A DNA stretch of 64,000 bases, from positions 32,001-96,000 of the IMG/VR virus record IMGVR_UViG_3300045988_039227, one strand, 5' to 3'. The first letter of the stretch is position 1. The number at the start of each line of letters is the position of its first letter. This document shows, piece after piece, positions 3,001 through 56,058 of this stretch. Position numbers and translations under genes: made by a program. This DNA is from a virus. The notes beneath the pieces are model-generated. The model saw nothing but the letters and a program-made list of their open reading frames with translations. It was not told where the DNA came from and ran no database searches.

Positions 3001-4463
3001 ATTATTACGCCATCATGATGAAAATCAGGATTGTAAAAGTGTATATTATTTTTCTAGTATTCCTACTTTATTTGATTTATATCTAAATCCAAATACCTTT
3101 TTATAGTAATAATATTATCTTTTATGTAAAAATTAGCATCTCTATTTTTATTTATGCTAACAGTGACTCCATATATATTAAATTTAGAGAAATCTTTATT
3201 CCTATATCTAGTATAAAGATCTGCTCTTGAATCGGATATTTCTGCATCAGAATAATTAGTGGTAAGGTATGTTTTTTCTAAATCCCTAGTTGATAGTGCT
3301 TTCTATCTTTCTTTTGCATAATATATAAGGTCATCTTCTGATATGCCTTTAAATAATGATGAAAGATATCTAGACTCCATAATATTTTCGTATATTGTTT
3401 TAGCCTATTCGGCACTAAAAACATGAACAATACTATAGATTATATCGTCGAAATTAAATTTTGAATCATATTTGTCGTCATCAAATGGAAGAATATCGTC
3501 AACAAGTCTATCTTTAAATTTATTTAATTTGTCATCAATTTCGTAATATCTTTTTTCATGAATATTGCTCCAACTATGACCATATGCATCAATTATTTTC
3601 GGGTTTTTGATATTTAAATAGTCAACTTTTATATTATCATAAAGATTATTTTCAAATCTGTTTTTATATTTTTCCGGATTAGCGTTATTATGTATATCAC
3701 TAAAATTGTAAAACGACCCTATTATATCTTCATATACAGAAGTAATTAATTTAAAAGGAACATTTGGATCCTAATACTCAACAAATAGTCCATCTAATTT
3801 TAACAAACAATCTTCTGCGTCTTTTATGTTACCATAATTTATCGCTTCTATAATTTTTTTCTTAAGAATATTATTAAACCAATCAAAATTACGTTTATCT
3901 TTAAAATCAGATTCTTCAACATTGTTCAAAATGCTAATAACAGTCCTTTTGGAATCTGTGTACCACTATGAATATTTTTTTAATGTGGCGTCATTAAACG
4001 ACGATAATATATAACTAGTCACATCGTTATAAGTCGATGACATAGTAATGCTATCTGTATGATATATAGCAGTTTTAAAACCTTCTATATTTGTGTCAAA
4101 CTTCTTAAAATTAGGACTATATTTACTGTTTACTGTATGATATGTAACCTACGGCTCTCCATTCTTATCTACAACTTTAGATACATTTTCTTTATCTTCA
4201 GAAGTCCAATCCCCAAACCATTTAAAGAATTCGTCAGAATATACTTTTGCCTTAAGTATAAGGGCTTGTGTTCTGTCGCCGTTTGCAATATGCAATAGCT
4301 CTCCAAATAATATAGAGTCGGCGCCATTTGGCGCCTTATCTATACTATATCCATTATTTTTGCTCCAGAGTAAATACGCAGTATCCTCATCGAACAAATC
4401 TTTTAATTCACCAAATTCTTTGGCTACTTGTTTATTATGTAAATTAGGACATATTTCTTTCAT
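1..4463 (-). CDS. Large ejected/virion polyvalent-type protein with an HExxH (zincin-like) motif. The 3' end lies beyond the window start (at least 1,487 codons).
   Basis: ATG at 4463-4461 overlaps the TAA of the upstream giant gene (TAATG). I read every codon of this frame down to nt 1 and found no TAA/TGA and ~39 in-frame TAG. ORF-track pieces 4149..4463, 663..845 and 102..419 are collinear fragments that each end in TAG. Motifs: FKWFGDW...VVDKNGEP-TAG-VTYH near the N-terminus, and VHEMLHAVTEH at 2535..2549. Confidence 0.8.
2535..2549 (-). other. HEMLH (HExxH) zinc-metallopeptidase-like motif inside the 1..4463 gene
   Basis: Minus-strand codons CAT GAA ATG CTA CAT lie in the gene frame. 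Context is IVHEMLHAVTEHAIGN, with a downstream Glu. Confidence 0.5.
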
Positions 4464-7400
4464 TATTTACCTCCTTTGCAATGTTTTCTAATTCTTTCAG
4501 CTTCTTCTATATCTTCCTTAGTAAGATTAATCTATGCCAAAGCCTACTTCTGCTGTTCTTCTTTAATTAGTGTATTAGCGTAATTATCACCTACAACTCC
4601 TTCTATTGATAATCCGTAGCCAGTATAACCTGCTCTAGTATTTTCCTAAACTGTTGATTTTATGTTAAATCTAGAAAGTAATTGTAAACTAAGCCATTCA
4701 GCAGCCTCTCTAGGTAACGCTGCTTTGCCAAGAGCTATAGCGGATGGGAATACAATTGGTTTACTATTGTCTATTCTTGCAAGCATATGGTTAACCCATG
4801 ATTTAAATGCCATTATATCACCTTGATTATCCTAGAAACATCCATCTTTAGCAAGCCATCTACCAGAAGCATCTTGCTGATTAACTTTTACTACAAGACC
4901 AAACGCATTAGGTGTAATTTTGCCATCACTACCAGTTCTGATGCAAGCTTGATTTGTACCAGTAGCACCAGAGCTTACATTTAATACCGGATTCTAATTA
5001 GCAAAACCTTGCATAGACAAACCTTGCGCCTTAGCATAAGCCTAAGCATTATCTGTGAATACGTACTGTACATTTGGGTGTTGTTGAGGCTAGTCTTTAT
5101 AGAATAACTGTTTGCTTATATACACAGTCTATCCAGAAGGACCTTTACCATCAAGATTAATATTAACAGCACTTTGTGTACTTTGTTGTTCTACAGCTTG
5201 TGATATTGTAGGATATTCTGAATTAGCATTATAGTACATCTAATTGAACCACGACATCCAGTTATTGCGCTGCTCGTCAGTAATATTTGGCTTCATCTGA
5301 CTAAGATAAGTCATAAGTTTACTAAGTTGGTTTTCAATAACTTCTTGACTCATAGGAATTCCATTTATATTTAGGTTAATATCACCAGCTTCGTAGATAT
5401 TAAGACCATCTCTATCTGACCAGCCCCTCTTAGGTAATAACGCATATACGGCACGCTTGGATCCATTAATCATAGCCTCTCCAACCTTTTTATACAATGT
5501 GTATGACGTTGGATCGCTATATACTGCTCCATCATTTCGTACTGATATATACAAAGCATCATGTTCGTGAGAGTCCTTGCTAATTATTACAGCAGGAGAA
5601 TACTAAGCATTGAAAGCGTAATAGTAATCTTTGAATGTAGCTCTGCTTACTAAATCGCTATCCATATAGTTGTTCTAAGCTATAAGATCGTGATTAATTT
5701 CTGGGGCTTCAAGTTGTTCCCTAATATAATCAGAGAATGGCACCGTACTTTCGTCGTGTCTAGCTTCAAGCCAACTCATAGGAATGTATTTAGCTATTTT
5801 ATTAAAGCCCTTTGTATCGCCAGATGTAAGCATTGCATACAATATAAGATCATTCGCAAATCTTCTAACATTAGCCTAATGGTCATTAAGAAGCTCCTCC
5901 CAAGACTCTATAAACATATCAGAAGACATCTTACTCTCATCCATACTATTAATAACGCTTATAAACTTAGGTTTGTTAGTAGGTTTTCCGTTTACAAAAA
6001 CATCCTAATCCTAAATATATGGAGCAAGATGTGATAATAGATAGTTATCTTTTAATCTACCTAAACCGTATGCATCACGCTGAATACAAGCCTGTATAGA
6101 GTTCAATCTATCAAATATTGTAGCATTACCGTCAAATAAACCTTTAACATCAATACCTAAAGACTTAGCTAATCTAAGAGCGTATCTAGCTTTAATCTAA
6201 CTACTAGCAGCCTATGATATCTTCTTCATAGTCTTAGCGTTTCTAAGCAAATCGGACTCTCTGTCATTCGTCTTATATTTAAAGTCATCGGATAAATTGA
6301 TAAGCTATTCCATAAACTAAGGTGTACCCTAGAATGATTGTCCAGCCATAACTCTCATAGGCTCTTGAATAGCGTCTCTTGTTTTCTACTCAATCCAAGT
6401 ACCATGTATAAGATTATTGATAGAGTTCGTATCAAACAGCTAATCAGTTTCTGGGTTTGTAAGATTCTCGTAACCTCTAAGATAAGCTTGCATCTCAAGG
6501 AAATTCTTACCTTGCTTACGAGTATCAATCTTAGTATACTGTACCAAACTATTTAATGCGTTAGAATACTTTTCAAGACACTTCCATGCTATGTAGCAAT
6601 TAACCTAGAAGGCTCTAGCTCTTTCTCCCTCTTCGGTCTAAGCATAGACTAAATCTGGGTTCTTAGCAATCTTCTAAAGCATATCCATATTATTGAGTAC
6701 AGAGTTTACTATCTCTGCTCGTCTAGCTGGTTCGCCTTTAGATTTATTTGGTTCAGTAGCGTCTTTAATATACTAATCGTCTATTGTTTTGCCAGTAACG
6801 CTAGGGAATATCTCTGCGAGTCTCTTATCTCTCATTTCGAAAGCTGACCTAAATACCTTAGGATCTCTAGTAAACTGAGACTTTGCATCAATATCTGCTT
6901 TAGCCATCTCTCTAATAATAGGCTAACATAAGAAATAAAGACCTTGTTTACCCTTACCGTTTCTAGCAAGTAAGTTGATCATATTATATGTAAACCCATT
7001 TACATTAAGCTTAGAGATATATGGATCTTTCACAATATCTACGTGGGCATTAATGAATGCTGATAACCAAGATGAAATCTGATTATTATCTTCATCAAGA
7101 ATCTAATCGAAACCGGTAATACCTGTCATCCGTGTAAAGCTAGACTCTTTAAATTTAACACCATACAATGTTGTAAGAATATGGTTTGTTACATTCAACG
7201 CAAATGGACCAATACCAGTCTTACCTGTAATGTAGTCATTTTTACGGGTAACCTGTTCATGCAGTGTACCAAAGTTGTACGCTACGCTCTTTGTGTTACC
7301 CTGTTCTGGAATCTCATCTGCAATGCTTGTTACAAGCTCTGTATCATTATCGATAGATTTATATAAGATATTAAGTGACTTTTTATCCTTAAGTACTGTA

Positions 7401-10400
7401 AGAATACTTTCTATAATGCTATTCTACAATCCTTCTGCGCTTTCTGGATCAAATTCATAACCTCCATTCTCATTAACATTATAACGTGCTAAATAAAGGT
7501 GGTCTATATCAAAATCCGAACCAGTAATCTTGGTAAACTCAGTTGGAAGTATTACTGTAGATTTAACAGCAGGTACAACATCAACAAAACGTAAAGCATG
7601 TATAGATGACTGAGCCTGTGTAGGAATACGATAACCAATCGTATTAGATGTGGCATTTTCTCCGATTATATTATGATCTAAAAGCCATTGTCTAGCTTCG
7701 TTGTAAGATAAGTTCTTTGGAAGTATATCCTAGAAGTAATCAATAGATATTACAGCATCCATAGAGCCTTCTTCGTTTATCATCTACAATCTCTTACCAT
7801 TATAGATCTCCTATCCTTGTATACCGCCTTCGCCATTTTTGCCTTCTATAGCAAATACTGATCTCTGAATAAACGAGCTACCAGGAGTCATAATGTCAAT
7901 AATATCCTTATTAGCCGCAGATATAAGCATAGACTCCATCCAGCTAGCATCAGCAGTAGATGCAATAGGCGCATTCATTGAGCCCGTCTATGGATTATAT
8001 GTAAGAGCGTCTATAAGATTCTTATTAGCATTTCTTGTGCCAAGTTGCTCTATAAGGTACTCGCTAAGCTTCTTTTGGTCTATAATTCCGTTAGAGTAGA
8101 ATCTATCTTTAAATTTGTCTACACCAAGTTTAGAAAGCTTATTAATAGAGCCCATTAACTTGTCTCTAAGCTGTTCTCCAGTCATGTCGCCATACGTTCT
8201 ATCAAGTCGCAAACTAGATAAACAAACCTTAATCATCTGTGTACCGGCTGCTACAACATCACCTTCCTCTGGATCAGTATTAAGCTGTCTACGAAGCGCA
8301 GATAATCTCTGTGTATAAACGTTCAGCGGCTTACTAATAGTCTCTCCATCGAACTCAGAATGGCCTTGTAGACCAACCTTTACAGCAGATGTCATAAGAA
8401 GATTATCAACCTTATTTTCCTTCATCTTATCATACACATTCTTAAGTTTACCTGTGGCTATACAATCAAATATAGGGAACAACGCAAACTTATTATAATA
8501 TGGAACAGATAAGTTAGAAACCTTCTTTCCATTCGTTGTATGATCCCTAAATCCGTATGCTGTATATTTTGTTGTTACAAGATTCACTTTATTATACACA
8601 AGGTCGTATGCATCTTTTTGATCCATCCACGAATATTTATCAGAACTTTCAAGGATATTAATAGCCTTTGCTACGTCGCCGAATAGCGCACCTCTAGAAC
8701 GAAGCATTCTTTTGCACATATCTGCTGTAATGTAAGATGCACCATCGGCTACATTGATTCCACCAGTATAGGCTTTATAGAAGTTGTTAGCTCTAGTTTC
8801 TATCTTCTTAACAGCATCCTCGCCAAAGTCGTCTACAAGCCTAGCTCTTACTGCGCCTATATCTAAATCATCAACACCTTTAAATCCGTAACGGTTTCCA
8901 TAGATTTCCCTAAGTTCACCATCACGCATCTTCTCTTGGAGTTCGCTCATTACATCGGCATTTGAAGCTACTTCATAGTCTGCTATCTCTGCACATCTAT
9001 AAAGTTCTCCATCTGAACCATCATAGTTTGGCAACGATGGGACGTTGTCATCACCTGTAGACACAAGGCCACCGATACGTTTCTGAATATCCTCTACGTT
9101 CTTAAAGAATCCAGGGTTGCCAATATATAATCTCAAGCATTCTTCTGATGAAATCATACCCCTATTTGTAACATCTTGTAATATAGCTGCTATAGCCATA
9201 CTATACGCTGTACGCTGTAAATTTTGTGTATTAGGCGTTATTCCTTTATCGGTGAGATCTTTATACATCTAAGCGTATAAAGTGCGTTCTACAGCATCTA
9301 TTTGGCTCTAATTAAGGTTTATGTTATTAAGGCCAAGGTAACCAAGCTTTTCATCTTTTGACACTATACCAAGACTAACGGCTTTATCTACCTCAAGTTC
9401 GTACTGCTCCTAAAGTGTTAAAGCCATTATCTACTCTTGCTCTTCTCTAGACTTATCAAAGAACTGTTCATTAAGAGTCTTAAGCTATTCGTCAGGAGAC
9501 ATATTGCTTATTTCGTAGCGTTTAATCTAGCCGTCTTCATACACTCTAAGTGTCGTAAGTGATTTAAACTGAATACCACCAGGCTACTTTCCTTTCTTGC
9601 CGATGTGATAATTCATTATCTTGTCTTCATCATTAAGTACGGGTAAGCCCTTAGGGTTATCTACATGTAAACCAAGTTGTTCTCTACAATCAAGTATAGC
9701 TTCACGCTCTGTATAAGCATATTCGATAAACTGATTTAATACAGATTGATTAGGCTGCAAATAGTAGTGAGAGCTATCTAAGAATATCATCTTTGGTGCA
9801 CCGGATACAGTATAAGCACCATTGTCTAACTACCCGAACTACATTCCAGGGATATTTATACCACCAAGAACCATATATGTACCCTTATCGGCAAGGGTTG
9901 GGAATACACAATATCCATTCTGAAGCATTGCGAACTTATTAATATAATCTTCAGCTTCAGCAAGATTGCTATATTTAGAACCATTGTCACCACGATTATC
10001 AGACTTGAAGCCAATAGGAGTATAAATACTAATATTGAAATCTTCTCCGTTCTGCAATTGCTTTGCAACAATAGAACCCATGTTCACGCCATTATTATTC
10101 ATAATGTTGTAACTAGACTACAAAATAGTCCTTACTACCATATTGTTCTTATCATGACTATTAAGGTTCTCTGTAGTATTGCTAATACTATTGTTCTATG
10201 ACTCGTTATACAGCTTAGTACCATCCATACCATTAGACATCTTATCTGTAGTAATCTTCATATAGGCTCCAGCCCAGTTACCTAATTCGCTAACAAAACC
10301 AGTCTTAAATATCTCGTCTACAGCCTTCTGTGTTGTATAACCATTTGTTTGTACGACTTTGCCGACTGCATCAATAAAACTATTAATATTAGATACACCA

Positions 10401-13400
10401 GTAGATGCAATCCACTTTTTAAGGGCTTCTCTACCAACGCCATTATACTTTGTAGATAACATATGATCGAGCATTTCTTTTGTAAAGTTTATACCAAGCA
10501 TATTAAACTCTTTGCATATATCATCTTTAAGTACCTCGATATCACTATTAGATGCTGCGCTTCTAATCCTTCCGTTTATCTTAAATTCACTAGCAGAATC
10601 ATTAAGTATCTACGATTGTAAATCAGAGAAGAACTGAGATATAAATCTAAATGCGTTTCTTGCTACAGTCGTAGGCATATCTACCTAAGTATTCTTTGTG
10701 TTATACTTTGTAGAAAGAAGCAATTGTCCATTCTACCCAACATACCTCTACAATAAGCCAGATTGACCAGAAGATAAGAACGAGTTCCAAAGCTTAGGGT
10801 ACATTCTGGCATCTCTGTCGAAGTTTGCATCAGATATTTTGACTTCAACACCTCCGTTCTTATTACGTATAGACCTACCAATAATAAAGTTGTGTTCATG
10901 GCCCTTTATAGCTGTAAAGATTTGTATCATAAACGCTTCTTTATCGAAGTCTATCTTTTCAAGCTAATTATCGTCGTTGAATGTATAGATAGAATTGTAT
11001 AGATCGCTATACTTCTAATAGATTGCCATATACATAGGGTTCTGCGTAGATAACTCCTGCAGTCTATTTAATAAGTCTAAAGGAGTTTTAACATCATGTA
11101 ACTTGCTAACAACTACATTAAATACCTGCTTAATAGGCATAAATGTAGGAACGCCATATATGTTCTTAGATGTATCAAGAGCAAGTTTACCGTTATCATC
11201 AAACTTATAGTAAGGTATTGTAGCAAAGAACATCTTCACTGGCTTACTTACAGAATCAAGCTTATTGAACTCAAATGCGGACTTATCGTATCTTTCGATA
11301 GACTTTCCATAATCATTCTCTTCCTGGTCACTTGTCTCAGAATCGTCATCATGCTGATATTTGCCGTCATAGGCATCCATTATTTCGGTAAGATACTTCT
11401 ATACTTCTTTTGATATAGCTGAGAAGTTAGGGAATACAACATCACCTTTATCATTTAATTCTGCGTAAAACACTTCTCTAAATGCTTGCTGTGTAGGAGT
11501 AACTGAATCAACAGACATATACTATCCATTCAGAACGGGCTTAACAGAACCTGGCTCGCCAATAAGGTTGTTTATAACCTTCATTGGTATATATTTAATA
11601 GGAAGTTCTGAAGAGCTGTGTACTGCATCATATATATCAGTAGCATCTTTAGCAGACTTTACTATAATATATCCAAGAGCTCTAGCCATATGTTCCTTCT
11701 CAGCGGCAGAGCCTATATGATCGAATTTGCGTCCATTTATTTCATAATGCAAGTCTTCGCCAAACAGCTTTTTAAATCTATCTTGCTGTTCTTTGCTTAC
11801 CTATTTATCTGCATATTTTCCAGACTTAATATCGTTGAACAAAGTAAGAACCGTTTTAGCATTGTTTCTGTAATGCCACAAGATACTTAATCTGTTAGCT
11901 ACTTTCTTTATATTCCTCTTAATCCAGCCTTGTTTCTTTATAGCATTAGCGTCTTTTGTGCCGAGCATATAATCGACGAATAAATCAGCCAATCCCTCAG
12001 CTACATCTCTTTCTGTAGCAGCTTCTGGATGAGCTTTTCTGTATGCAGAATACATCTATTCTCTTACAGATGGCTCTACAAGTAATTCTAATGCCCTATG
12101 GAATCCTTCATGGAAGCCAATAGTATAAGGAACTGAATTAGACATCTAGATAACAGCATCTGTACACCTAGCAAGTACTGCGCTATTCTTTTTATAAGCT
12201 ACATCTGATAACCTTTCGCTTTCTACCCACTATGGAGTAATACCTGTTGTCTTTCTGACCCATTCATCAACGGCACTAGCAAATGATGGCTTTTGTTTCT
12301 AGCCTTCAAACTCTGATAAATCTTGTTCATAGAACAAAGACATAAATGTGTCTTCGGCCTACTTTTGCTGCTATTGAATATCTTGTTTAGCAACTGTTTT
12401 AGATGCTTGCTGAGCGCTTCCATTTGGATGATTTTGTACAAGCTCTACATTATCTACGTATACTGTAGGAGGATCAAGTTTAGCTGCATATGACATTAAA
12501 TAACCATTGCGCAGCATATAACCAAGACCGGTAGTACCTTTGCCATCATGAGTAAAGTCTTCTCTTGTAAACGTAAGACCATTTGGAAGTTCTACTTTAT
12601 CAAGGTTAGGATTTGATGCATATTGCGCATTAAGCTTAGCTAATACACTATTATGTGATGACTATATATATTGCTGCATATTCTACTGAACAAATGCAGC
12701 ATCTTTTGTCATATACATATTACACAGAGCATTGTAGATATTAGCGTAGTCTACACTAGGATTTTGCGTAGGGTAAATAACATTACCTATTATAACTCTC
12801 TTATTAGCCGGATCTAATGTAACAAGACCTTCTATTGAGTTATATTTCTCATTTAATACTTTATTGTCAGCCTTAATATAAAGAACCTGCTTAAGTAAAT
12901 CGTCTATAGAATATCCTTGATACTCATTTAAACCTTGATAACATTTATACCATATAAGGTCTGCAATCTTATTAGCCTAACCACCTTGACCAGCAGTAAA
13001 TTTAGGCTGTATTAACGGCGTACCAATACATCTATTATCTACAGCTTTCTCAGTCTGACCAGTATCATAGAAGTATACAATATTACCAGATTGTGTTATA
13101 GCTGTACGTTTTATATATTCTAGATCAAATCCACTAATTAAAGTTGATAATTCTGGGCCACCATATACCATCTTCGTTACGTCACCAGTGTTTACGTTTT
13201 GTGTAGCCTTAAGGAAACCTATTCTGTTACCAGCGTCGCATGTAATATTGTACAAATCATGCTAATTAAGCGTTCCTGCGAACAAGAATTTACTTACAGG
13301 CTATAATTCACTACCGTTCTTAATTGAACCCTTAGAACGGCTTAATTTCATGCTTATATGGTATCCTGGATGTGTTTTCATAAAGTCGAGCATATACTTA

Positions 13401-16400
13401 ACTTTCTATACAAACACAGCATCTGCAGCTTTCTTTCTAGCAAAATATACCGGATCAACACCCCTTGGACCAGCGTCATTACCCTGGTCGAATGTCATAA
13501 AGATTGTTCTGCCTTTAGAATCTGTAAGCTTAAGCTATACTTCATTATTTCTCCACACAAGCTCAGCATTACCAGATTTTCCAGAAGCATCTGGGTAAAT
13601 CAAATGCGGATCAAGCGCTATAGAGAAGTAATGCGGGTCAAGTTTAGCCCTAAATGCAGGGAAATGTTTAGTAGTATCACTATACAGCTCTCTCCATTGA
13701 TCGTCAATCATATTGATACTCTACGCGCTGTTTGTATCAAGTATATCGTCAACATTTGGATCTACAGGGAATCTCTGGTTATATTCTCTAATGAAGTCTT
13801 CTGCATCATAAATAGTATCAGTAAGCGCATTATCAAGAGCTGTATTTGTTTTCTATACATTCTTTGTATTATCAGTCAAGAACTTAAGCTAATTATTTAT
13901 AACCGTACTCCAGAATCTTTGCAAACTCTTGTTGCCAACAAGGCTATTCATAAACTCGCCATCAAATGTAGCAAGGAATGACTTAATCTTGTTAAAATAA
14001 GTAAAGCTAGGATTACCAATATTAGATGAAAATTGAGTCTGCCACATTTGTAAGGCCTTATTTGCAGCGTCTCCGTACATCATCCTATTGTCTACTAGCT
14101 TATTAATAGCTGCTGCTATAAGCTTCTGCTCTGGAAGGGTATCGCCAACTTCAAACTAATCGCTACCGTAGAATTGGTCAAGAGCTGTCTAGGCATCATA
14201 TATTGAGTAAATAAGCTCATTAACTTGAGCTCGTTCGTCTGCTGTTGTAATATTAAGGTTTGTAATAGAACTTAACAGCGTATCAAGTTTCTTGCAGATT
14301 TCATGAATAGTATCAAGACCCGCCTAATATTGTTCATCTACAATAACGTGATCAAACGCATCTTCTGGGTAGAATCCAGGTACAGTATTCTCGTGCTATT
14401 TAGGCTACATGAGCTAATTTAAGCGCATCTGAGCGTCTTCTTTTAAGCTCTGGATAGATTCTATAGCTGAGTAAAGATCTCTCATCTGAAGTAATAATTC
14501 GTCCTTATTTGAGCCTTCTTTAAATATATCGTAAGATGGTACAGTTTTATGTTCGCCACCAGCTTCAGCAATACTATCGTATATACTTTGCAAATCAGAC
14601 ATAAGATCGTTTACTTTATTCTGCAAAGGTCTGACAACTTCGTTAGAAATATCTTCATTAGATTTATTGTAATATGGTGTTACAGGCTTGTTGAAATCAA
14701 GCATTTCTACTTTAAATACAGGTTCTGCTACAATTCCACTCGCTGTTCTATCATAGTAGAATGGCATTACGTATGTGCCTTCAATATTAGAACCAAATGT
14801 ATCGTAAAGTACCTAATTTAATCTTTGAAGCTATCTCTATTCCTACTGGATCATTGTTTCTTTAGCTCGACTATTGGACTTCTAATTACCAAGCATTCTG
14901 GTTTTTATGTCTGGTTTAAATGAAGATCTAACATCTATAACAAGAAGCTATCCATCATTATCAACAAGTACAATATCAGCCTATGATTGTATAGCTCTGC
15001 CTTTGTCATCATAGCCATAAATAGGAATGTCTGTATCAAGTACTCTATACTGACCGCCGTTGAGCATTCTGTCTCTAACAGACTTAACATACTGCTTAGC
15101 ATCTTCTAGTCCATTCGGATTATCTAACAGCGTGTCGGCAAAACTATCGTCATTTCCTAACATTATAGCCTATGCTAGTTCCCTAATAGTTTCTCCATCC
15201 CTTATAGACTGAGAATTAAAATAAGCTGTATCTATTGATGCTAAATAATGAGCAAATCCCTATAATAATTCCCCTTTATTTGGCTGAGAAAATATTGTGT
15301 CAATTATATCAGAATAATCTTGATCTCCGAATCTATCTGTATTATCTGCAAGATATCCAAGTATCTACTATTTGTCAGAGATGTTTATATTTTCCTCAAT
15401 TTCTGGATAATGAGACTGATATTCAAGTCTGTCTATCTCGTCTATATTTTCAAATACATGTAGATTATTATTATCGTCGTACGCTATTGTTGTATGGAAA
15501 CAATGTACAATAGCTCTGTTCTATTGACGCTTTAAAGCCTTTCTGTATCCATCGAATGATGTATCTTGAGAGGCATGTGTGGCAACTTGTGCTCCATAAG
15601 ATTGTACATCCATAGGAGTATTCATATTCTCCTTTTCTTTACGTGTTGATGTAAGGTAATGGCGAATATACATTGCTTTTGCTAAAGCTAATACTGAAGG
15701 TCCGCCGTCCTAACCAGTCTCTTCTTGAAGAATAGTTTTTATATCATTGTAGAGCTATTCAAACTTATAGAAACCAACCTTAGCGTTCTCCATAAGACCA
15801 TCGAATGACTACATTGCAAGTTCATCAAATCCAAGTAAAAATGATACTCTTGCTTTATTGCGCCTAGCTTTGCGCTTCTTTCTATAATGCTCTCTAGCCT
15901 TATCTCTACGACGTTTATATTCTTCTGCGTGTTTCTAAAGCTCCTCTGTAGTAGCTATATGCTTTTGCTAAGTTTCTGTTGGGTCTACAGCTTGCTTAGC
16001 TTGAGTATTAATGTCTTTTATATCTTCCTATGCAGCTTTAAGTATATCATTCTAGTAATCCTCTGTAAGCTTTGTTACAGCGTCTCCAGAATATATATCG
16101 GATAACATCCAGTCTATATTTTCATTCTGTTTGTTTGCATCGATAATCTTTGTGATACGCTCGTTAAGCTTACTCTTTGACCCGTCTTTAGCCGCAGCTC
16201 TAGTATGTTCTTCTGGCTTATATTTATCACCGAGCTTCTGCTTTAACTCAGCCTGCTTTCTCTGATACCTAAGCTCATCTGGATTATACTCAAGATTACC
16301 ATTATCATCACGTGTAACGCCTTCTGTGTGAATTGATAATGTAGAGTTAAGTAAGGATTCGTTAGCTGTATACATAGCTCTAGCTTGTTCGAGCTCCTGG

Positions 16401-19400
16401 ATCTCGTTATCATTAAATCCAACAGACTCGCTAAAATTGTTCAAGAATTGTAATGTCTATTCGTCTGTAGACTTCTCGTCGAAATTCTTATAAGCTTTAG
16501 CTAAACTTTGCTTTGCGCGAGCAATTTGTTTATCTATATTAGCAGACAACAACTTAGCGTCAGGTCTAACGGTCTTTAATCCAAGCTTATCGTGAGCAAA
16601 CTTAAATATGTCATCAATAGAATTCATCTTTGCTTTAAGTGTAAGCAATGCTTTCATTCTATTGTGAGCTTCAGAATTTCTCTGGAAGTTATTTATATGT
16701 CTATCGTGCTCTTCTTTCTATGAGCGCTCAACAAACTTTTCGCCATATTCGTTTGCTTCATCTTTGATAGATTCTTTGTATTCTACTACAGATTTTTCTA
16801 CTTCCTCTTGAGGCAAAGCTGCTGTATCAAGAGACTTCTTGTACTCATCCACCTTTCTGTTAACATAAGACTCGATTGCCTTAGTCTTTGCTGTAGCTGC
16901 ATTTATAGCAGTTAGCATAGGATCTCTTGACTATTCCTATCTATTTACAGCCTGTTCTACCTGATTTTGATAACCTTGCTGTCCGTAAATCTACTGAAGT
17001 CTAGCCTCGGCTTCCTACTAAGCTTTTCTGTTAGCAGTTAACTATTGCTCGATGTTAGCCCTATCAGCTATAGCTACATTGTATTGTTCTGTACCTTTAC
17101 TGATACCTTTAAGACGATATTGCTGTTCAGTCTACTTATTGTTTACGAGAGCAGAAATACGCTCCACATTAGACTGTAAATCATTCCAATACTGTTCACC
17201 AAAACGTGGTCTCTCTCGCTTCAAATCAGCCTCTCTGAGCTACTATATTTCTGTAGTCAGCTAATTATACCTTCCCTTAGAGATCTGGTCTGAAATAACA
17301 GCATTACTAGCTCTATTCATCTTTCCTTGTTCTCTATCAAGAAGCGCACTGTGCATTATAGCGTCTTTTACTTGTACGGTGTTCTTAATGTCATTAACGG
17401 CATGATAGATGTTCATGGCTACCATAGGATGCATACCACCCATAGCAAAACCACCTCGCCAGTTTGACAACATCTCCATATCGTTATAAAGTTCAGATTC
17501 GCCAAGACCAAACATACCTTTATAGAAGTCTGATACCTCTTTGCTATGAGCCATATCCTGGAATGCAAGACTGAGCAAATCAGCTGATCCGTATCCATAT
17601 GTCTTAGCAAACTCTTCAGCAGCATTAGCATTCAACTGCTGTACAATTTCTTCATTTCCTTCAGACGCTCTATCTATAATACCTTTTCTAACCGTATTGA
17701 TACCGTATTTGTTAAGCATTTTGAGAGCAGTAACTGTATTAGGATTCTTTACGGCTGCTTTCAGTAGTTTTCTCTTCAGCGTTTTAGCTCCAACCATAGT
17801 TGCTAATGCTTCAGCCTTCTTCGCTATAGCCTCACTAGCCATAACTCCTGCGTCTTTTAGAGCTTGCGGCATGACTTCTTTTGCAAGCCCCTTTACTCCC
17901 CTAGCAACTTCTCCTGCGGCAGCACCAACTCCAGCGCCAACATAATGTCCAAGAACACCACCACCAAGTACATCCATTGTTGTTGAGCCAATCTTTGCAC
18001 CAGTTTTGCCAGCTGCACTTGTAAGAGAGTTAACATACTGTCCAGCCTGTGCAAATTTACTTTCAACAGCTCCGTTTAATCCCGCGAGAGCATAGTCTGT
18101 ACCAATAACCAATCTTCCAGCTTTACTAGTGGCAAGCTTTGCCCCAAGTTTTGTTGTAGGAAGTTTATAGATGGCTTGTCTATAAAGACTTGATAGACTA
18201 TTGCCTGGCTATACATATGATATAACGTTTTGAACAACTTCTGTACCCATCGTTCTAGCGTTATCTACCATAAATTGCTATTCAAGACCTTTTGTTGTAC
18301 CGAGTTTAGCTTTAGATAAACGTGGATCATTACTCTTTGTAACGCCCATTAGGTAATCACTAAGAACTTTTTCCTTACCTTGCTGTGTATTAAGATTATA
18401 TCTATCCTCGGCATCTTTCTTAGACATACCATTCTACATTGCAAATTTTACAGACTGCTTTTGCAAATCTTTATACGATGCAGAAATACCTTGTGCTTTA
18501 CCGGAAGCTTCCTACGCTTCGTATTTATTAAGATTCTATTGATAGTTCTAGGTCCAACGTTGAGCAATTTCAGCGTAGTTCTCATCTTCTGCACCTTGCA
18601 GATTAAATGGAAGTGCAGCTGCATTAGCAGCGTTGTACAAAGCAAAACCAGCTTCTGGATGTCCGGCTGCTCCCAAAGCAAAAGAACCGACAGTACCAGC
18701 AGTTGTTATAAGATTACCAATATTACCTGTGTCTGAAGACCAAGAAGAACCCATCTGTTGAGGCAAATTCCACAACCAATAATCAGGTGTTAATAGATCA
18801 TCATTAGCATGTATATTTGCAAGATTCTCAGCATGTTTACTAACGTTCCAGAACTTCTTCCACTTAGACGCTCTACGCATCTAATCGTCAAGAGTTTCTT
18901 TGTAATCCTTAAGATCTTGCTAACGCTTAGCTTTAAATTGATTTGCTTCTATTTCTTTTTGATCCAAACTCATTCCTTGATGAGCCTTTTCAAATCTATT
19001 GGATAGCTACTTATTATAGTTATCAAGCCAATCCCTAGCCATCTACTCTTTGGATCTACCTGTGCCGTCAAACATATCATTTGTGACAGCAAATGCCTTA
19101 GTCATAGCAGCCTGAAATCCTTCCCACATAGATGTATGATCTTTCATCCATGTAGCCTTGTATGCATCGGCGAGTTCATTTAAATCTTTGTCTTGCAGCT
19201 AATCGTATGTTGACAAGATTTCTTTACCAAGTAAATACGTATCTTTCCACGCATCTCCTTTAACCTAAGCTTTAGGATTAGCTTTAAGGTAATTCCATTG
19301 GTCTTCCTTTGATTTAAGATCTCTTTTAAGTCGCTCCCTTTTGGACCATGCATCAGCTTTTGCCTAGTCTGTCTAAGCTAAAGCGATTTTACCCTTTGTG

Positions 19401-19948
19401 CTTTCAATTCCAAGATCGCTAGACTGATTTGAAAACAAACCAATTCTCTAGCCAATCTTCCATAACGTGAATTGAAAACTATCTTTTCCAAGTTCGTTTA
19501 TACCGCCAATATCAGAGCCAACAGAATTTTTGTAGATATCAGTCTTTTTAAAGTCTTCAAACAGCTTATCTTCCTCAAGCTATGTTTGCTTCTCTTTCTC
19601 TGCGTCAGAAAGTATACCTTCCGAGTCATCTTGGGCATCAATCTTTTGTCTGTTTGATCTTTCTTGTTGCTTGTATAAGCTGTCAATATGTTTATTCCAG
19701 TCATATTCAGCTATAGCATTTTTCTATCTCTGAATAGATTTTTGACTAGGCTTATACCAATCCCCGTGCGGCATTATATCAGACTCTAATCTAGAACCAG
19801 ATTGTCTTGATATGTAACTTGGTACATTAGCCTAAGTCCTTTTATTAGGAACGGATTGGCGTTGATTTGGTAGCGTTATACCAAATCTTTTAGCCTATCC
19901 TCTAAAATAGTCCTCTGCTGGGGACTTAAGTAAATTGTAATTTGCCAT
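4463..19948 (-). CDS. Giant 5,161-codon virion protein. It contains a crAss-type virion RNA polymerase motif (DFDID), an HExxH motif and Gly/Ala-rich hydrophobic segments.
   Basis: ATG at 19948-19946, with an in-frame TAA two codons upstream; TAA stop at 4465-4463. Nineteen ORF-track fragments from 18548..18880 down to 5240..5554 share one frame and each ends in TAG. I read all gaps between them codon by codon and found no TAA/TGA. There are ~124 in-frame TAG. Confidence 0.8.
7502..7516 (-). other. DFDID (DxDxD) putative catalytic metal-binding loop of the virion RNA polymerase
   Basis: In-frame GAT TTT GAT ATA GAC, context TGSDFDIDHLYLARY. As I recall it, this matches the aspartate loop reported for crAss-like phage vRNAP (phi14:2 gp66). 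Not verified by search. Confidence 0.6.
12098..12112 (-). other. HEGFH (HExxH) motif inside the giant gene
   Basis: In-frame CAT GAA GGA TTC CAT, context YTIGFHEGFHRALELLVEP. Confidence 0.45.
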
Positions 19949-19955
19949 AATTTAA

Positions 19956-21410
19956 TTAATTTGCTTTGTTAGGTGCTTTTCCTATATATCCAGGTTTGAC
20001 TTCAACCCAGATTGTTTGTCCAACTGCTCCAGCTGATTGATTATTATTTACAGATACAACGTTAGCCTTGATATAATACCTACCAAGTTTCTTGTTATAT
20101 GTAGGACCAGATGTTACTGTTGCAGTAATCTTCCTTCCAGGTGTTCTATAGAGTCCAAAGTTAACTCTCTTTGATCTACCTTCATTTAACTATCTAAACG
20201 CTCCAGACTTGGCTATATATTGTCCGTCATTAACGGTAATAATCTATTGTTTAGTAGATTGTGTCTATTTATTATCGCTATCACCCTGCGATCGAGACTA
20301 TGTATATTCATTCCATTGAGCATCTGGGTCTGCAAGTGTTACACCGTTAGCTCTAAGGTCATCTATTGATGTTGATACTGGAGTATAAGGCTACTCTCTA
20401 GCTGTATCAAATATAGTCTTATAATTACTTCCGGAGGAACTGTGATCCGGAATACCATTTGCAGCTCTTTTTACATCATCTGCGTATTTGTAATCCAAAA
20501 TAGCCTTTTGATTAGCGAGGTCTCTAGCAGATTTCTTTGCATCAAGCTAATCAGCAAGTATATTCTAATAGTTGAGTAAAGAATATTTATTAGGATCCCA
20601 TGCTATATTCTTCTTTCCTTCCCAAAGTTGCGCAACAGTACTCTACAATTGCTGTTTAACCTAATCGTCTGTAGGATTAGTTACACCAGCCTACTGTAAC
20701 TGCTATTTGGCTTTATCGTAATAATATTCGCCTGCTGCTGTAGACATAACAGACGGGATTGCCTTGCCGGCTGTATCCATGATCATCTAATCTGTAATAC
20801 CAGTGTAATCATTCTTTGGATCATACTTATATCCCATAGCCTCAACTTGTTTCTATGTAAGATTACTAGGTTTGAGTATACTATAAGGAATCTTTGTAAG
20901 ATCTTCTAGTGTGTCCATCTTCGTTGGAGCTAATGTATTCCAACTTTGTGTATATGGGTCAAACTTATCATAATCTAACCCATACTTCTACATTTGCCAA
21001 CCAAGCTAATCCTATGTAAGTTTTCCTTCAGCAACCATAGAAGCAGCTGCTTTCTAAAATGTCTTCATATTGTCAGCGTCAGCTTTCCATTTAGAGATCT
21101 TATCATAAGGTGTCTCTCTAATGATCTTGGCTATATAAGCTCTACCTTCTGCAGATCTAAGTGGGTCTATACCGTTCTAATACAAGTAATTAAGACCAGC
21201 GTTAACCCTGCCCTTTGTCTAATCATAGTAAGCTTTATTTAAACTAGCGCTTGGGCTATATAGGTCTCCGAATTCCTTAGCAAACTCCTTCTATTCTTGT
21301 ACAGCCTAATTATATTGTTCTCTTGCAGCACTAATGTACTACGACATCATACTGCTATCCAGTAGGTCTATAATAGGGACCGCTACTGGTTCATCATACA
21401 TTCCTATCAT
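19956..21410 (-). CDS. Hypothetical virion/ejected protein, 484 aa
   Basis: ATG at 21410-21408 overlaps the TAA of the upstream gene (TAATG); TAA stop at 19958-19956. All codons read: ~22 in-frame TAG (about 4.5%) and no TAA/TGA. The standard-code track shows no ORF of 60 aa or more here. Confidence 0.7.
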
Positions 21411-43505: not shown

Positions 43506-43521
43506 ATTATAATATGTGTTT

Positions 43522-43563
43522 AAAAACAAAAAGCCGAGATAGGGTAAGAACCCCCACCCCGGC
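43522..43563 (-). terminator. Intrinsic terminator specific to the minus-strand transcript
   Basis: The minus-strand RNA is GCCGGGGUGGGG-GUUCUUA-CCCUAUCUCGGC followed by UUUUUGUUUUU. This gives a 12-bp stem in which three pairs are G-U. Those three pairs would be A-C mismatches in a plus-strand transcript. It starts 7 nt after the TAA of 43570..44694. Confidence 0.7.
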
Positions 43564-43569
43564 AATTAA

Positions 43570-44694: not shown

Positions 44695-44773
44695 ATTAAA
44701 ATTAATTTTTTCTACTCACCCTATAATATTAACACTAGACCTAACTAGCTGGGCTTTCCACGTTAAAATTATG

Positions 44774-46937: not shown

Positions 46938-46949
46938 ACGTCGTTAGTT

Positions 46950-47705: not shown

Positions 47706-47847
47706 AATTTTTCAATTAGTTGTTGCAATGCCAAGCTCCCGTGTACTATCCGTCTTTTATCGTGTAGCACGCCCGTTGCCGAATAGTCAAATCCCACGGA
47801 AGATTATTGGAATCCACGGGGTTGAACATTGTATATTATTTAATTAA
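47706..47847 (-). other. Longest non-coding spacer in the window (142 nt), with nested inverted repeats
   Basis: Nested stems in plus-strand coordinates: 47738-43 with 47815-20 (6 bp), 47745-52 with 47780-87 (8 bp, one G-U on the minus-strand RNA), and 47761-64 with 47768-71 (4 bp). There is also a direct repeat (T/A)CCCACGG / ATCCACGG at 47792-99 and 47812-19. Confidence 0.4.
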
Positions 47848-49380: not shown

Positions 49381-49398
49381 AATATGTTAATTGTCTCA

Positions 49399-56055: not shown

Positions 56056-56058
56056 GTA

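What the first reader, a model, noticed from the sequence alone, without database searches (positions are those of the whole stretch)
4463..19948. A single 5,161-codon gene with about 124 amber codons fuses the virion RNA polymerase to other ejected-protein modules
One uninterrupted frame of 15,486 nt carries several modules:
- an N-terminal coiled region
- Gly/Ala-rich hydrophobic segments at about 17880..17990
- an HEGFH motif at 12098..12112
- the DFDID polymerase loop at 7502..7516
- a distinct C-terminal domain at 4463..5240

In the characterised crAss-like phages I recall, these functions are split over several genes.

The arithmetic matters. If each TAG were decoded with 99% efficiency, only about 29% of ribosomes (0.99^124) would finish. 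At 95% efficiency the figure is about 0.2%. So either suppression is close to complete, meaning RF1 is effectively neutralised, or truncated products are tolerated or even used.
Basis: partly seen in the sequence, partly recalled or inferred. Interest (0 to 1): 0.8.

Follow-up and report, generated by a model that had tools for sequence, protein, structure and literature searches.

The report
Giant amber-recoded crAss-like virion polymerase gene
This is a real 5,161-codon gene of a gut crAss-like phage in which TAG encodes glutamine; it joins the virion RNA polymerase to other modules, but giant genes like it are already annotated in related phages, so it is a new example of a known thing.

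Summary
On the minus strand, 19948 to 4463 is one ATG-to-TAA frame of 5,161 sense codons with 124 TAG, no TGA and no internal TAA.

TAG behaves as a glutamine codon:
- In relatives 85-91% identical in DNA, 71 of 99 compared window TAGs stay TAG, 24 are CAG or CAA, and none is TAA or TGA.
- dN/dS is 0.013-0.12 in every 500-codon bin that could be measured, including the last 161 codons.
- TAG supplies 38% of Gln codons in this gene and 40% across the window.

The modules are:
- a subfamily-specific N-terminal region of about 2,400 aa;
- a conserved zincin-like HExxH...E domain;
- a two-barrel RNA polymerase core homologous to residues 691-1981 of the phi14:2 virion polymerase;
- a 170-aa C-terminal domain with no detectable fold match.

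The novelty claim fails. Related phages already carry single annotated genes of 4,328-6,386 aa, several with 37-78 TAGs, and one (cr118_1) has none. The literature describes fused "huge polyproteins" and polymerase genes of up to about 6,000 aa. The canonical zincin protein is the separate downstream gene.

Eleven of 17 close relatives encode a tRNA(CUA) outside the region matching this window.

Verdict: new member of a known kind, of modest interest.

The parts
4463..19948 (-). Whole gene: 5,161 sense codons plus TAA, with 124 in-frame TAG read as Gln. It encodes a giant virion cargo polyprotein of about 580 kDa (mass estimated from length).
   Evidence: End-to-end homology to cr130_1 gp79 (aa 337-4888, 33.5% identity, single HSP) and to the database protein P0014 (5,215 aa, covering aa 163-5161). 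dN/dS is 0.013-0.12 in all measurable bins.
12629..19948 (-). N-terminal region, aa 1 to about 2440. It evolves fast and is specific to the subfamily. It is rich in charged residues and contains the Gly/Ala-rich segments. Its function is unknown; a role in ejection or channel formation is inferred only from position and composition.
   Evidence: tblastn of aa 1-1100 and aa 1401-2700 finds only Oafivirinae relatives for this part. No Pfam or PHROG hit. No profile match to phi14:2 neighbour proteins.
17894..18016 (-). Gly/Ala-rich, weakly hydrophobic segment, aa 645-685. A second one lies at aa 410-428 (window 18665-18721).
   Evidence: 50% G+A in 40 aa; Kyte-Doolittle maxima of 1.28 and 1.2.
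11813..12217 (-). Zincin-like metallopeptidase-type domain, aa 2578-2712. HEGFH is at aa 2613-2617 (12098-12112). The conserved Glu of the following helix is at aa 2651 (AEGLAD).
   Evidence: H, E, H and the downstream E are invariant in 13 giant proteins from three subfamilies. hhalign against the zincin region of the downstream protein family gives 91% probability, E 9.5e-7. Solved zincins (Zmp1/PPEP-1, FtsH) match only weakly, E 0.2-4.
5723..9757 (-). Two-barrel RNA polymerase core, aa about 3398-4742. It is collinear with residues 691-1981 of the phi14:2 virion RNAP gp66. Going by the residue numbers published for gp66, that span holds the connector, the DFDID site, the bridge helix and the trigger loop.
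   Evidence: Profile tiles reach E 5e-79 at a database size equal to the PDB. blastp gives E 1.5e-13 and 8e-12. tblastn hits annotated 'putative RNAP catalytic subunit' genes of crAss002, p-crAssphage and crAss001-like phages.
7502..7516 (-). DFDID catalytic motif, aa 4145-4149. The junction between 7514 and 7513 (D4145|F4146) is where close relatives carry a group I intron. The window allele has no intron.
   Evidence: Intron in L016 3408-3668: RF00028, 87.1 bits, E 6e-23. cr131_1 has an intron plus an endonuclease-like ORF at the same site.
4574..5086 (-). C-terminal alpha/beta domain, aa about 4955-5125, of unknown function. It is a module that occurs at varying positions in giant phage proteins.
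   Evidence: 159 representative clusters, mostly proteins of 2,000-6,000 aa, with the domain near the N-terminus, in the middle or at the C-terminus. AF2 model of a 52%-identical homologue: pLDDT 90.4, pTM 0.86. No Foldseek match in PDB or BFVD at E <= 0.001. Only a faint link to DUF7831.
4466..4525 (-). Extreme C-terminal peptide ...KEDIEEAERIRKHCKGGK, with a conserved near-terminal cysteine.
   Evidence: The same ending occurs in cr130_1, cr131_1, P0012-P0014 and, in shortened form (...KKHCKN), in cr272_1. A Cys lies in the last 8 residues of 43 of 54 DFDxD-bearing giant proteins, against 2% expected. phi14:2 gp66 ends ...QECK.
1..4463 (-). Downstream gene, more than 1,487 aa and cut by the window edge. 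Its start overlaps the giant gene's stop (TAATG). It carries its own HEMLH motif (aa 639-643, window 2535-2549). It is the orthologue of the phi14:2 zincin cargo protein.
   Evidence: blastp to phi14:2 GenBank gp076 (HExxH at residue 245): E 2.6e-10 over the motif region. The same gene follows the giant gene in all relatives.
19956..21449 (-). Upstream gene of about 498 codons with 23 TAG. It ends 5 nt before the giant gene's ATG. A gene of similar size precedes the giant gene in the relatives.
   Evidence: Synteny with the 467-628 aa genes upstream of the giant genes in relatives.

Best explanation
The region is one late gene of a crAss-like phage. Its nearest annotated relatives are Oafivirinae, now placed in Darmviridae and formerly in Suoliviridae. 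The phage uses genetic code 15, in which TAG encodes glutamine.

The gene encodes a giant virion cargo protein of the 'polyvalent protein' type. From N to C it contains:
- a fast-evolving N-terminal region of about 2,400 aa, with Gly/Ala-rich segments;
- a zincin-like HExxH...E domain;
- a phi14:2-type two-barrel RNA polymerase core;
- a 170-aa domain of unknown function;
- a conserved Cys-containing tail.

Shown here:
- The frame is intact.
- TAG substitutes freely with CAG and CAA.
- The whole length, including the last codons, is under strong purifying selection.
- The polymerase core is homologous to an experimentally characterised virion RNAP.
- The same fused layout occurs in relatives, including a standard-code one.

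Inferred:
- The protein is translated late, once a phage tRNA-Gln-derived amber suppressor (anticodon CUA) has been made. That suppressor was found in most close relatives, outside the window.
- A few copies are packaged in the capsid. They are ejected with the DNA and transcribe the early genes.
- The zincin-like domain may cut the polyprotein, in the capsid or after ejection.

Because only a few copies per virion are likely to be needed (the crAss001 capsid study illustrates its capacity with 6 copies of each polymerase-associated protein), imperfect read-through is affordable. This fits the finding that the major capsid gene avoids TAG entirely.
For: ORF and stop-codon counts.

TAG = Gln:
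- Of 99 window TAGs compared with relatives 85-91% identical in DNA, 71 stay TAG, 24 are CAG/CAA and 4 are something else. None is TAA or TGA.
- Distant relatives have Q at 12-22% of window TAG sites, against 3-4% background and 21-32% at CAA/CAG sites.
- All 32 complete genes in the window end in TAA or TGA.

Full-length translation: dN/dS is 0.013-0.12 in every 500-codon bin for aa 1-2346 and 2817-5161. For the last 161 codons it is 0.02-0.12.

Polymerase: profile E 5e-79 to phi14:2 gp66 residues 980-1551, with overall collinearity over 691-1981. The DFDID motif is invariant.

Zincin-like domain: invariant H, E, H and E; hhalign 91% probability.

Family trait: single giant CDSs in cr130_1, cr272_1, cr109_1, cr118_1 (0 TAG) and cr125_1. 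P0014, 5,215 aa, has HExxH at 2654 and DFDxD at 4206.

Context: major capsid protein, portal and TerL lie upstream on the same strand.

Suppressor: 11 of 17 genus-level relatives have a tRNA(CUA). One scores 43 bits on the Rfam tRNA model. It resembles the phage tRNA-Gln(UUG) of cr130_1.

Literature:
- Virion packaging and early transcription by gp66, and 'huge polyprotein ... likely cleaved' (10.1101/2020.03.07.982082).
- Capsid capacity illustrated with 6 copies of each polymerase-associated protein (PMC10172136).
- TAG->Q confirmed by mass spectrometry in a Suoliviridae phage (PMC9523058).
- Zincin-like domains as processing peptidases of polyvalent proteins (PMC5512222).
Against: - No tRNA of any kind lies in the window. 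The window's own genome outside these 64 kb was not available, so the suppressor is inferred from relatives.
- Three of the closest relatives have only a non-canonical CUA tRNA-like sequence, which fails the Rfam tRNA threshold.
- The zincin assignment rests on motif conservation and one profile-profile match. Pfam and PHROGs give nothing. Solved zincins match only at E about 0.2. The AF2 model of the region is poor, pLDDT 47.
- Nothing here shows packaging, ejection, cleavage or polymerase activity for this protein.
- The first roughly 690 residues of gp66 have no detectable counterpart, so the N-terminal boundary of the polymerase module is unknown.
Confidence: 0.85

Rival explanations
1. 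Graded termination is used. RF1 competes at each of the 124 TAGs, so ribosomes drop off progressively. This would produce a nested set of N-terminal fragments, serving as abundant ejection or channel parts, plus a small amount of full-length polymerase. TAG density would then set the stoichiometry.
For: - The arithmetic in the finding is right.
- TAG is absent from the major capsid gene and rare in the neighbouring head genes. That suggests TAG decoding is costlier than CAG.
- The N-terminal region has the Gly/Ala-rich segments.
Against: - TAG density in this gene equals the genome-wide share: 38% of Gln codons against 40%.
- TAGs are spread along the whole length.
- At conserved Gln sites, the choice of TAG versus CAA/CAG is independent between the window and distant relatives. 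For cr130_1 the counts are 6/13/11/30, an odds ratio of about 1.3. Only one site is TAG in two distant relatives.
- Close relatives swap TAG and CAG freely in both directions.
- cr118_1 makes the homologous 4,946-aa protein with no TAG at all.
Confidence: 0.08
2. The long frame is an annotation artefact. It would really be several genes, separated at some TAGs that still act as stops with nearby restarts, as in phi14:2 and crAss001, where the cargo proteins are separate.
For: In phi14:2, crAss001 and p-crAssphage the polymerase-associated proteins are separate genes. Standard-code gene callers split this region into fragments.
Against: - No TAG in the window aligns with TAA or TGA in any relative.
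- A standard-code relative has the zincin-like motif and the polymerase in one uninterrupted 4,946-aa ORF.
- A single BLAST HSP to cr130_1 spans aa 337-4888.
- Purifying selection is uniform across the gene.
- The only recurrent split point in relatives is a group I intron inside DFDID. That is RNA splicing, not a gene boundary.
Confidence: 0.03
3. TAG is decoded without a phage suppressor tRNA. The decoder would be a host tRNA or near-cognate tRNA-Gln reading UAG, after the phage inactivates RF1.
For: - No tRNA in the window.
- cr130_1 has 74 TAGs in its giant gene, yet the only tRNAs found in the 31-kb stretch I fetched were tRNA-Gln(UUG) and tRNA-Leu(UAA). The rest of that genome was not scanned.
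- A preprint on a Darmviridae phage reports no CUA tRNA (10.64898/2026.08.21.746148).
- Only about 40% of TAG-recoded phages have a detectable suppressor.
Against: - 11 of 17 genus-level relatives of this window do encode a canonical tRNA(CUA).
- Three more carry a cloverleaf-forming CUA tRNA-like sequence at the same place, which ARAGORN and Rfam miss.
- No release-factor-related gene was looked for, so RF1 inactivation is untested.
Confidence: 0.15

Closest known systems
Giant polymerase-containing CDSs of Oafivirinae/Suoliviridae crassviruses, for example cr130_1 gp79 (YP_010113266.1, 5,801 aa) and cr272_1 gp23 (YP_010113476.1, 6,386 aa)
   Same: - Same position in the genome: after a gene of about 500 aa and before a large zincin-bearing gene.
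- Same module order: N-terminal region, HExxH...E domain, DFDID polymerase core.
- Same C-terminal ...HCKGGK ending (cr130_1; cr272_1 ends in the shortened form ...KKHCKN).
- Same TAG recoding, with 74 and 37 in-frame TAGs.
- Collinear alignment over aa 337-4888.
   Different: - Only 33% identity overall and 47-49% in the polymerase region.
- The window has the highest TAG density of those examined: 2.4 per 100 codons, against 0.6-1.7.
- The C-terminal tails differ. Relatives carry NADAR, DUF7831, DUF1848 and DprA/SLOG-like domains. The window has a single 170-aa domain of a different family.
- RefSeq product names for these CDSs ('DprA-like', 'DNA helicase', 'nuclear pore complex protein-like') do not mention the polymerase.
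Cellulophaga phage phi14:2 virion RNA polymerase gp66 (GenBank Phi14:2_gp077, 2,180 aa). Crystal structure and function are reported in bioRxiv 10.1101/2020.03.07.982082.
   Same: DFDID motif with Ile at position 4. Homology across gp66 residues 691-1981, which include the connector, the catalytic barrel, the bridge helix and the trigger loop. Near-C-terminal cysteine. Location in the cargo gene block.
   Different: gp66 is a stand-alone 2,180-aa protein in a standard-code genome. The window protein has about 2,700 extra N-terminal residues, its own zincin-like domain and an extra C-terminal domain. The gp66 N-terminal 690 residues, including the cleft-blocking domain at 196-233, have no detectable counterpart here.
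Polyvalent proteins of phages and conjugative elements (Iyer et al. 2017, PMC5512222), including the N4-type virion RNAP fused to zincin-like metallopeptidase domains
   Same: One very large polypeptide combines unrelated domains and is delivered with the DNA. A zincin-like HExxH helix followed by a Glu-bearing helix is the commonest hub domain and is proposed to process the polyprotein. The polymerase jump-starts transcription.
   Different: The N4 vRNAP is a T7-like single-subunit enzyme. This one is a two-barrel enzyme. The paper's text does not mention crAss-like phages (0 occurrences of 'crass'). Membership of the window's HExxH domain in one of its 12 MPTase clades was not tested.
PhiCrAss001 cargo proteins gp47, gp49 and gp50 (PMC10172136)
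   Same: Polymerase-associated virion proteins detected by mass spectrometry and stored in a capsid cargo zone. The study illustrates the zone's capacity with 6 copies of each. They must partly unfold to leave through the tail. The polymerase region of the window hits 'putative RNA polymerase' genes of crAss001-like phages.
   Different: Three separate proteins of 154-277 kDa in a phage of another family (Steigviridae). No homology was detected outside about 200 residues around the catalytic barrel.
Thermus phage P23-45 tape-measure-fused virion RNAP (5,002 aa; bioRxiv 10.1101/2022.12.01.518664)
   Same: A two-barrel virion RNAP that forms part of a protein of about 5,000 residues which leaves the virion at infection (abstract).
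   Different: A siphovirus tape measure protein with the polymerase at the N-terminus. Standard genetic code. No sequence comparison was made here.

Membership tests
crAss-like virion RNA polymerase (phi14:2 gp66 type, two double-psi beta-barrels in one chain) | DFDxD metal-binding motif with Ile or Val at the fourth position | tested here: met
   DFDID at aa 4145-4149. It is identical in cr130_1, cr272_1 and cr109_1. gp66 has 1361-DFDID-1365.
crAss-like virion RNA polymerase (phi14:2 gp66 type, two double-psi beta-barrels in one chain) | Sequence homology to gp66 across the catalytic core (connector, second barrel, bridge helix, trigger loop) | tested here: met
crAss-like virion RNA polymerase (phi14:2 gp66 type, two double-psi beta-barrels in one chain) | Gene lies in the cargo/transcription block at the end of the late structural module | tested here: met
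   Major capsid protein, portal, TerL and a virion structural protein lie upstream on the same strand. Synteny matches the relatives and phi14:2.
crAss-like virion RNA polymerase (phi14:2 gp66 type, two double-psi beta-barrels in one chain) | Protein is packaged in virions, ejected, and transcribes early genes | not testable with these tools
   Known for phi14:2 gp66 only.
Zincin-like metallopeptidase domain of polyvalent proteins | HExxH in one helix and a conserved Glu in the next helix | tested here: met
   H2613, E2614, H2617 and E2651 are invariant in 13 sequences from three subfamilies.
Zincin-like metallopeptidase domain of polyvalent proteins | Significant profile or structural similarity to recognised zincins | tested here: inconclusive
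   hhalign gives 91% probability, E 9.5e-7, to the HExxH domain of the downstream protein family, whose phi14:2 member the literature calls zincin-like. Against solved structures there are only weak hits: Zmp1/PPEP-1 at E 0.18 and FtsH at E 0.3-4. No Pfam hit. AF2 pLDDT is 47, so no fold search was run.
Zincin-like metallopeptidase domain of polyvalent proteins | Proteolytic activity, or self-processing of the polyprotein | not testable with these tools
   Only proposed in the literature.
Genetic code 15 phage (TAG = Gln) | Reading TAG as sense restores full-length conserved genes, and no gene ends in TAG | tested here: met
   ORFs of at least 150 codons cover 16.7 kb under the standard code and 71 kb with TAG as sense. 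Portal and TerL contain 15 and 10 TAGs. Stops are TAA in 26 genes and TGA in 6.
Genetic code 15 phage (TAG = Gln) | TAG aligns with Gln in homologues | tested here: met
   24 of the 28 changed TAG sites are CAG/CAA in close relatives. Q is enriched 4-6 fold at TAG sites in distant relatives.
Genetic code 15 phage (TAG = Gln) | Phage-encoded suppressor tRNA with anticodon CUA | tested here: inconclusive
   None in the window. Present in 11 of 17 genus-level relatives outside the region that matches the window. A non-canonical version is present in 3 more.
Genetic code 15 phage (TAG = Gln) | Peptides with Gln at TAG positions | not testable with these tools
   Shown for other crAss-like phages by Peters et al. 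(PMC9523058).
Darmviridae / Oafivirinae (formerly in Suoliviridae), order Crassvirales | Closest relatives by conserved proteins and gene order belong to this group | tested here: met
   The best tblastn hits for the polymerase region are cr130_1, cr131_1, cr272_1 and cr124_1, all Oafivirinae. The N-terminal region matches only cr130_1, cr131_1 and cr272_1. Oafivirinae now sits under Darmviridae. No formal TerL/MCP/portal phylogeny was made.

The most novel reading that the evidence does not exclude
The giant protein is a delivery vehicle, and its conserved ends matter as much as its polymerase. Three features define this reading:
- A near-terminal cysteine is present in 80% of such proteins across the order, against 2% expected.
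- The C-terminal domains are interchangeable: a 170-aa domain with no fold match here, and NADAR, DUF7831, DUF1848 or SLOG domains in relatives.
- An internal zincin-like peptidase is available to cut the protein.

On this reading the polymerase polyprotein is anchored or oriented in the capsid through its C-terminal Cys. After ejection it is cut, releasing variable counter-defence enzymes alongside the polymerase. The TAG load would keep all of this strictly late.
Probability: 0.15. Interest if true: 0.65.

Novelty: new member of a known kind. Interest (0 to 1): 0.3.

Why it matters
As it stands this is a well-supported example of two known features of crAss-like phages, not a discovery. The two features are giant virion-polymerase polyproteins and TAG-to-glutamine recoding of late genes.

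Its value is as a clean test case. One essential protein needs 124 consecutive amber read-throughs, so it gives a sensitive readout of how complete the code switch is in an infected Bacteroidota cell. That mechanism is still open in the field. Many recoded phages have no recognisable suppressor tRNA, and no way of neutralising RF1 is known.

The side observations could guide experiments on how these 500-700 kDa proteins are packaged, processed and used:
- a group I intron that targets the catalytic DFDID codons in sister genomes;
- a near-universal C-terminal cysteine;
- a mobile C-terminal domain with no known fold;
- non-canonical CUA tRNA-like genes that standard tRNA finders miss.

Tried and rejected
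- **PHROGs and Pfam** scans of six overlapping pieces of the protein gave no PHROG hit and only one sub-threshold Pfam hit (DUF7831, E 0.03).
- **phmmer of aa 2601-5161 against PDB sequences** found nothing at E <= 1. Homology to gp66 appeared only with BLAST against the phi14:2 genome and with profiles.
- **The search for homologous proteins** returned only 7 and 4 clusters. These are fragments made by standard-code gene calling, too shallow for good models.
I used near-identical database proteins as proxies.
- **AF2 of the zincin-like region** reached pLDDT 47, so no fold search was attempted on it.
- **Foldseek of the confident C-terminal domain model** found no match in PDB or BFVD.
- **The window's first 42 bases** have no exact match in IMG/VR. 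The window is therefore not identical to any of the related contigs used for the genome walk. The start of the giant gene does match five contigs exactly.
- **Low-stringency ARAGORN with intron search** on the tRNA-like region downstream of the primase gave inconsistent calls. I do not rely on them.
- **The 427-codon TAG-free stretch** (aa 3561-3986) was considered as a possible recombination or constraint signal. It contains 13 CAA/CAG and gives a permutation p of about 0.009. This is marginal and was not pursued.
- **Positional conservation of TAG** between distant relatives was tested and not found.
- I first thought that some loci had not reached the scripting machine. In fact several loci share one file, and this was corrected.

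Full report
**1. The observation**

On the minus strand an ATG at 19948 opens a frame that runs to a TAA at 4465-4463.
- It has 5,161 sense codons, 124 TAG, no TGA and no internal TAA.
- Off-frame TAA+TGA frequency on the same strand is 7.3%, so such a run has a chance probability of about 10^-171.
- HEGFH is aa 2613-2617 (12098-12112) and DFDID is aa 4145-4149 (7502-7516).
- The Gly/Ala-rich segments are at aa 410-428 and 645-685. They are only weakly hydrophobic, with Kyte-Doolittle maxima of 1.2-1.3.
- No Rfam family reaches its gathering score anywhere in the window, so no intron is hidden in the frame.

**2. Context**

Every substantial ORF in the window is on the minus strand.
- ORFs of at least 150 codons total 16.7 kb under the standard code and 71 kb when TAG is sense.
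- PHROG profiles identify the major capsid protein (47848-49386), the portal (53584-56058), TerL (56059-58131) and a virion structural protein (23729-28459).
- The window is therefore the late module of a crAss-like phage.
- The nearest annotated genomes are cr130_1, cr131_1, cr272_1 and cr124_1 (Oafivirinae). They are 34-49% identical in the polymerase region.
- NCBI taxonomy now places Oafivirinae in Darmviridae.
- IMG/VR holds contigs of about 102 kb from the same genus. They are 85-91% identical in DNA over this gene.

**3. TAG is a glutamine codon here**

I compared 4,159 codons of the gene with two such contigs. Of 99 window TAGs:
- 71 are TAG in the relative;
- 17 are CAG;
- 7 are CAA;
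- 4 are something else;
- none is TAA or TGA.

The reverse comparison gives the same picture.

In distant relatives, Q occupies 12-22% of the positions aligned to window TAGs. The figure is 21-32% for CAA/CAG positions and 3-4% for all other positions.

TAG supplies 124 of 324 Gln codons in this gene (38%) and 460 of 1,158 in the window (40%). All 32 complete genes end in TAA or TGA. So the count of 124 reflects gene length, not a special property of the gene.

The major capsid gene uses CAG 16 times and neither TAG nor CAA. The neighbouring head genes have TAG shares of 0.06-0.2. This suggests that TAG is avoided where output must be highest.

**4. Is the whole frame translated?**

Nei-Gojobori estimates with TAG counted as Gln, against eight related contigs, give dN/dS of 0.013-0.12 in every 500-codon bin that could be aligned. 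Those bins cover aa 1-2346 and 2817-5161. For the last 161 codons, which lie behind about 120 TAGs, the values are 0.02-0.12. Selection therefore acts on the C-terminus as protein.

At Gln positions conserved between the window and distant relatives, the choice of TAG versus CAA/CAG is independent. For cr130_1 the counts are TAG/TAG 6, TAG/CAR 13, CAR/TAG 11 and CAR/CAR 30. Only one site is TAG in two distant relatives. Nothing suggests that particular TAGs are kept as programmed ends.

**5. The fusion is a family trait**

The orthologous gene is annotated as one CDS in each of these genomes:

| Genome | Length (aa) | In-frame TAG |
|---|---|---|
| cr130_1 | 5,801 | 74 |
| cr272_1 | 6,386 | 37 |
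| cr109_1 | 4,328 | 70 |
| cr125_1 | 4,502 | 78 |
| cr118_1 | 4,946 | 0 |

It has the HExxH motif at residue 1733, and its polymerase region aligns with the window over query aa 3,603-4,700 at 31.5% identity. Both lie in one uninterrupted ORF.
- The window protein aligns to cr130_1 gp79 in a single HSP over aa 337-4888.
- An exhaustive profile search recovered many more giants, among them P0014. This is 5,215 aa, up to 43.6% identical, and covers aa 163-5161, with HExxH at 2654, DFDxD at 4206 and a ...CKGGK ending.

The literature already states the point:
[quoted passage not shown] - Yutin et al. draw the transcription block with its in-frame stops (PMC7886860).

**6. Modules**

(a) *Polymerase.* Profile tiles built from relatives map window aa 3398-4742 collinearly onto residues 691-1981 of the phi14:2 virion RNAP, with a best E of 5e-79 at a PDB-sized database. 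Going by the published residue numbers, that span holds the connector (1095-1238), DFDID (1361-1365), the bridge helix (1529-1559) and the trigger loop (1598-1636). The first 690 residues of gp66 have no detectable counterpart.

(b) *Zincin-like domain.* H2613, E2614, H2617 and E2651 are invariant in 13 giants from three subfamilies.
- A profile of this region matches the HExxH region of the downstream-protein family at 91% probability, E 9.5e-7.
- That family includes the phi14:2 protein, which the literature calls zincin-like.
- Solved zincins (Zmp1/PPEP-1, FtsH) appear only at E 0.2-4, and the AF2 model is poor.
- I therefore call it zincin-like, not proven.
- The orthologue of the known zincin cargo protein is the separate downstream gene (window 4463-1, HEMLH at aa 639-643), not part of this ORF.

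(c) *N-terminal 2,400 aa.* These match only Oafivirinae relatives and no phi14:2 neighbour protein. Calling them 'ejected-protein modules' is an inference from position and composition.

(d) *C-terminal domain (aa about 4955-5125).*
- It occurs in 159 representative clusters. Most are proteins of 2,000-6,000 aa, with the domain near the N-terminus, in the middle or at the end.
- A homologue folds with pLDDT 90.
- It finds no structural neighbour in PDB or BFVD.
- The C-terminal tails of the relatives carry NADAR, DUF7831, DUF1848 and DprA/SLOG-like domains instead.

**7. How the TAGs are probably decoded**

The window holds no tRNA. I walked through related IMG/VR contigs to cover most of the rest of the genome.
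- Eleven of 17 genus-level relatives encode a tRNA with anticodon CUA a few kb upstream of the late module. One scores 43 bits on the Rfam tRNA model.
- Its D and T arms resemble the phage tRNA-Gln(UUG) of cr130_1.
- Three of the closest relatives lack a canonical call. At the same place they have a cloverleaf-forming sequence with a CCCUAAA anticodon loop and an odd T-loop.
- This may be relevant to a recent preprint on a Darmviridae phage that reports no CUA tRNA.
- For the walked contig (007353), about 3.8 kb between the fetched stretches was not scanned.
- Whether RF1 is neutralised cannot be addressed with these data.
- The crAss001 capsid study illustrates its capacity with 6 copies of each polymerase-associated protein, so the demand for full-length product is probably low.

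**8. Verdict**

But the architecture and the recoding are both established features of this phage group. It is a new member of a known kind, with interest of about 0.3. The most useful by-products are listed under 'noticed in passing'.

Noticed in passing
Window 7513/7514 (between D4145 and F4146 of DFDID); L016:3408-3668; L003:15853-16765: Sister genomes of the same genus carry a 261-nt ORF-less group I intron (RF00028, 87 bits, E 6e-23) exactly inside the catalytic DFDID codons. cr131_1 has a longer intron with an endonuclease-like ORF at the same site. Several database proteins start at FDID... or end at ...GSDFD. The window allele has no intron.
   Followed up: yes
Window 4466-4525 (last 20 codons, ...RIRKHCKGGK): A cysteine lies within the last 8 residues of 43 of 54 DFDxD-bearing giant proteins. 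Overall Cys frequency is 0.25%, so 2% would be expected. The phi14:2 virion RNAP (...QECK) and the protein before it (...NTIC) also have one. The gp66 preprint I read does not mention it.
   Followed up: partly
Window 4574-5086 (aa about 4955-5125): This C-terminal domain folds confidently in a homologue (pLDDT 90) but has no Foldseek neighbour in PDB or BFVD. It sits at very different positions in about 150 giant phage proteins. There is only a faint link to Pfam DUF7831.
   Followed up: yes
L001, L003 and L008 (C-terminal tails of the cr130_1, cr131_1 and cr272_1 giant proteins); L005 (cr109_1 tail): The tails beyond the polymerase are interchangeable. Pfam finds NADAR and DUF7831 in cr130_1, cr131_1 and cr272_1, and also DUF1848 and a weak DprA/SLOG match in cr272_1. 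The cr109_1 tail has no Pfam hit to these families; it carries only an SGGAxGxD motif of the SLOG type seen by eye. These domains look like enzymes delivered together with the polymerase.
   Followed up: partly
Window 47848-49386 (major capsid gene) and 42123-50598 (head gene cluster): The capsid gene has 16 CAG, 0 CAA and 0 TAG. The neighbouring head genes have TAG shares of 0.06-0.2, against 0.4 window-wide. TAG seems to be avoided in the most highly expressed late genes.
   Followed up: partly
L148:5129-5202, L150:5714-5787, L187:4910-4983 (related contigs, outside the window): A tRNA-like sequence with a CUA anticodon, C at position 33 and a non-canonical T-loop lies where other relatives have a canonical amber suppressor. 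It folds as a cloverleaf, but ARAGORN misses it and it falls below the Rfam tRNA threshold. It could explain reports of 'no suppressor tRNA' in this phage group.
   Followed up: partly
L105:5914-6365 and the same place in L117, L134, L137 and L138 (related contigs, early region): ARAGORN calls a permuted tmRNA with a conserved tag peptide, (G/D)NVNNIVDYT(C/N)VA. Rfam's permuted tmRNA model scores 40.3 bits, below its threshold of 47. It is either a phage tmRNA-like gene or an artefact of tRNA-like pieces.
   Followed up: partly
L016:17855-18043 (related contig, between the primase and RecA-like genes): Two tRNA-like acceptor/T-arm units lie here without a clear anticodon arm. Other relatives have tRNA-Val(GAC) at this spot. 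These are possibly decayed or unusual tRNA genes.
   Followed up: partly
Window 2535-2549 (HEMLH in the downstream gene, which spans 1-4463 on the minus strand): The cargo block has two zincin-like domains: one inside the giant gene and one in the next gene. The second is the orthologue of the phi14:2 zincin protein. The downstream gene starts by overlapping the giant gene's stop (TAATG).
   Followed up: yes
Window 7991-9268 (aa 3561-3986): This is the longest TAG-free run in the gene, 427 codons containing 13 CAA/CAG. The permutation p is about 0.009. It covers the N-terminal (upstream) part of the polymerase core.
   Followed up: partly
Window 13346-13981, plus strand: A 212-codon antisense ORF without TAG lies inside the giant gene. 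Similar plus-strand ORFs overlap other genes. They are probably chance products of the skewed base composition.
   Followed up: no
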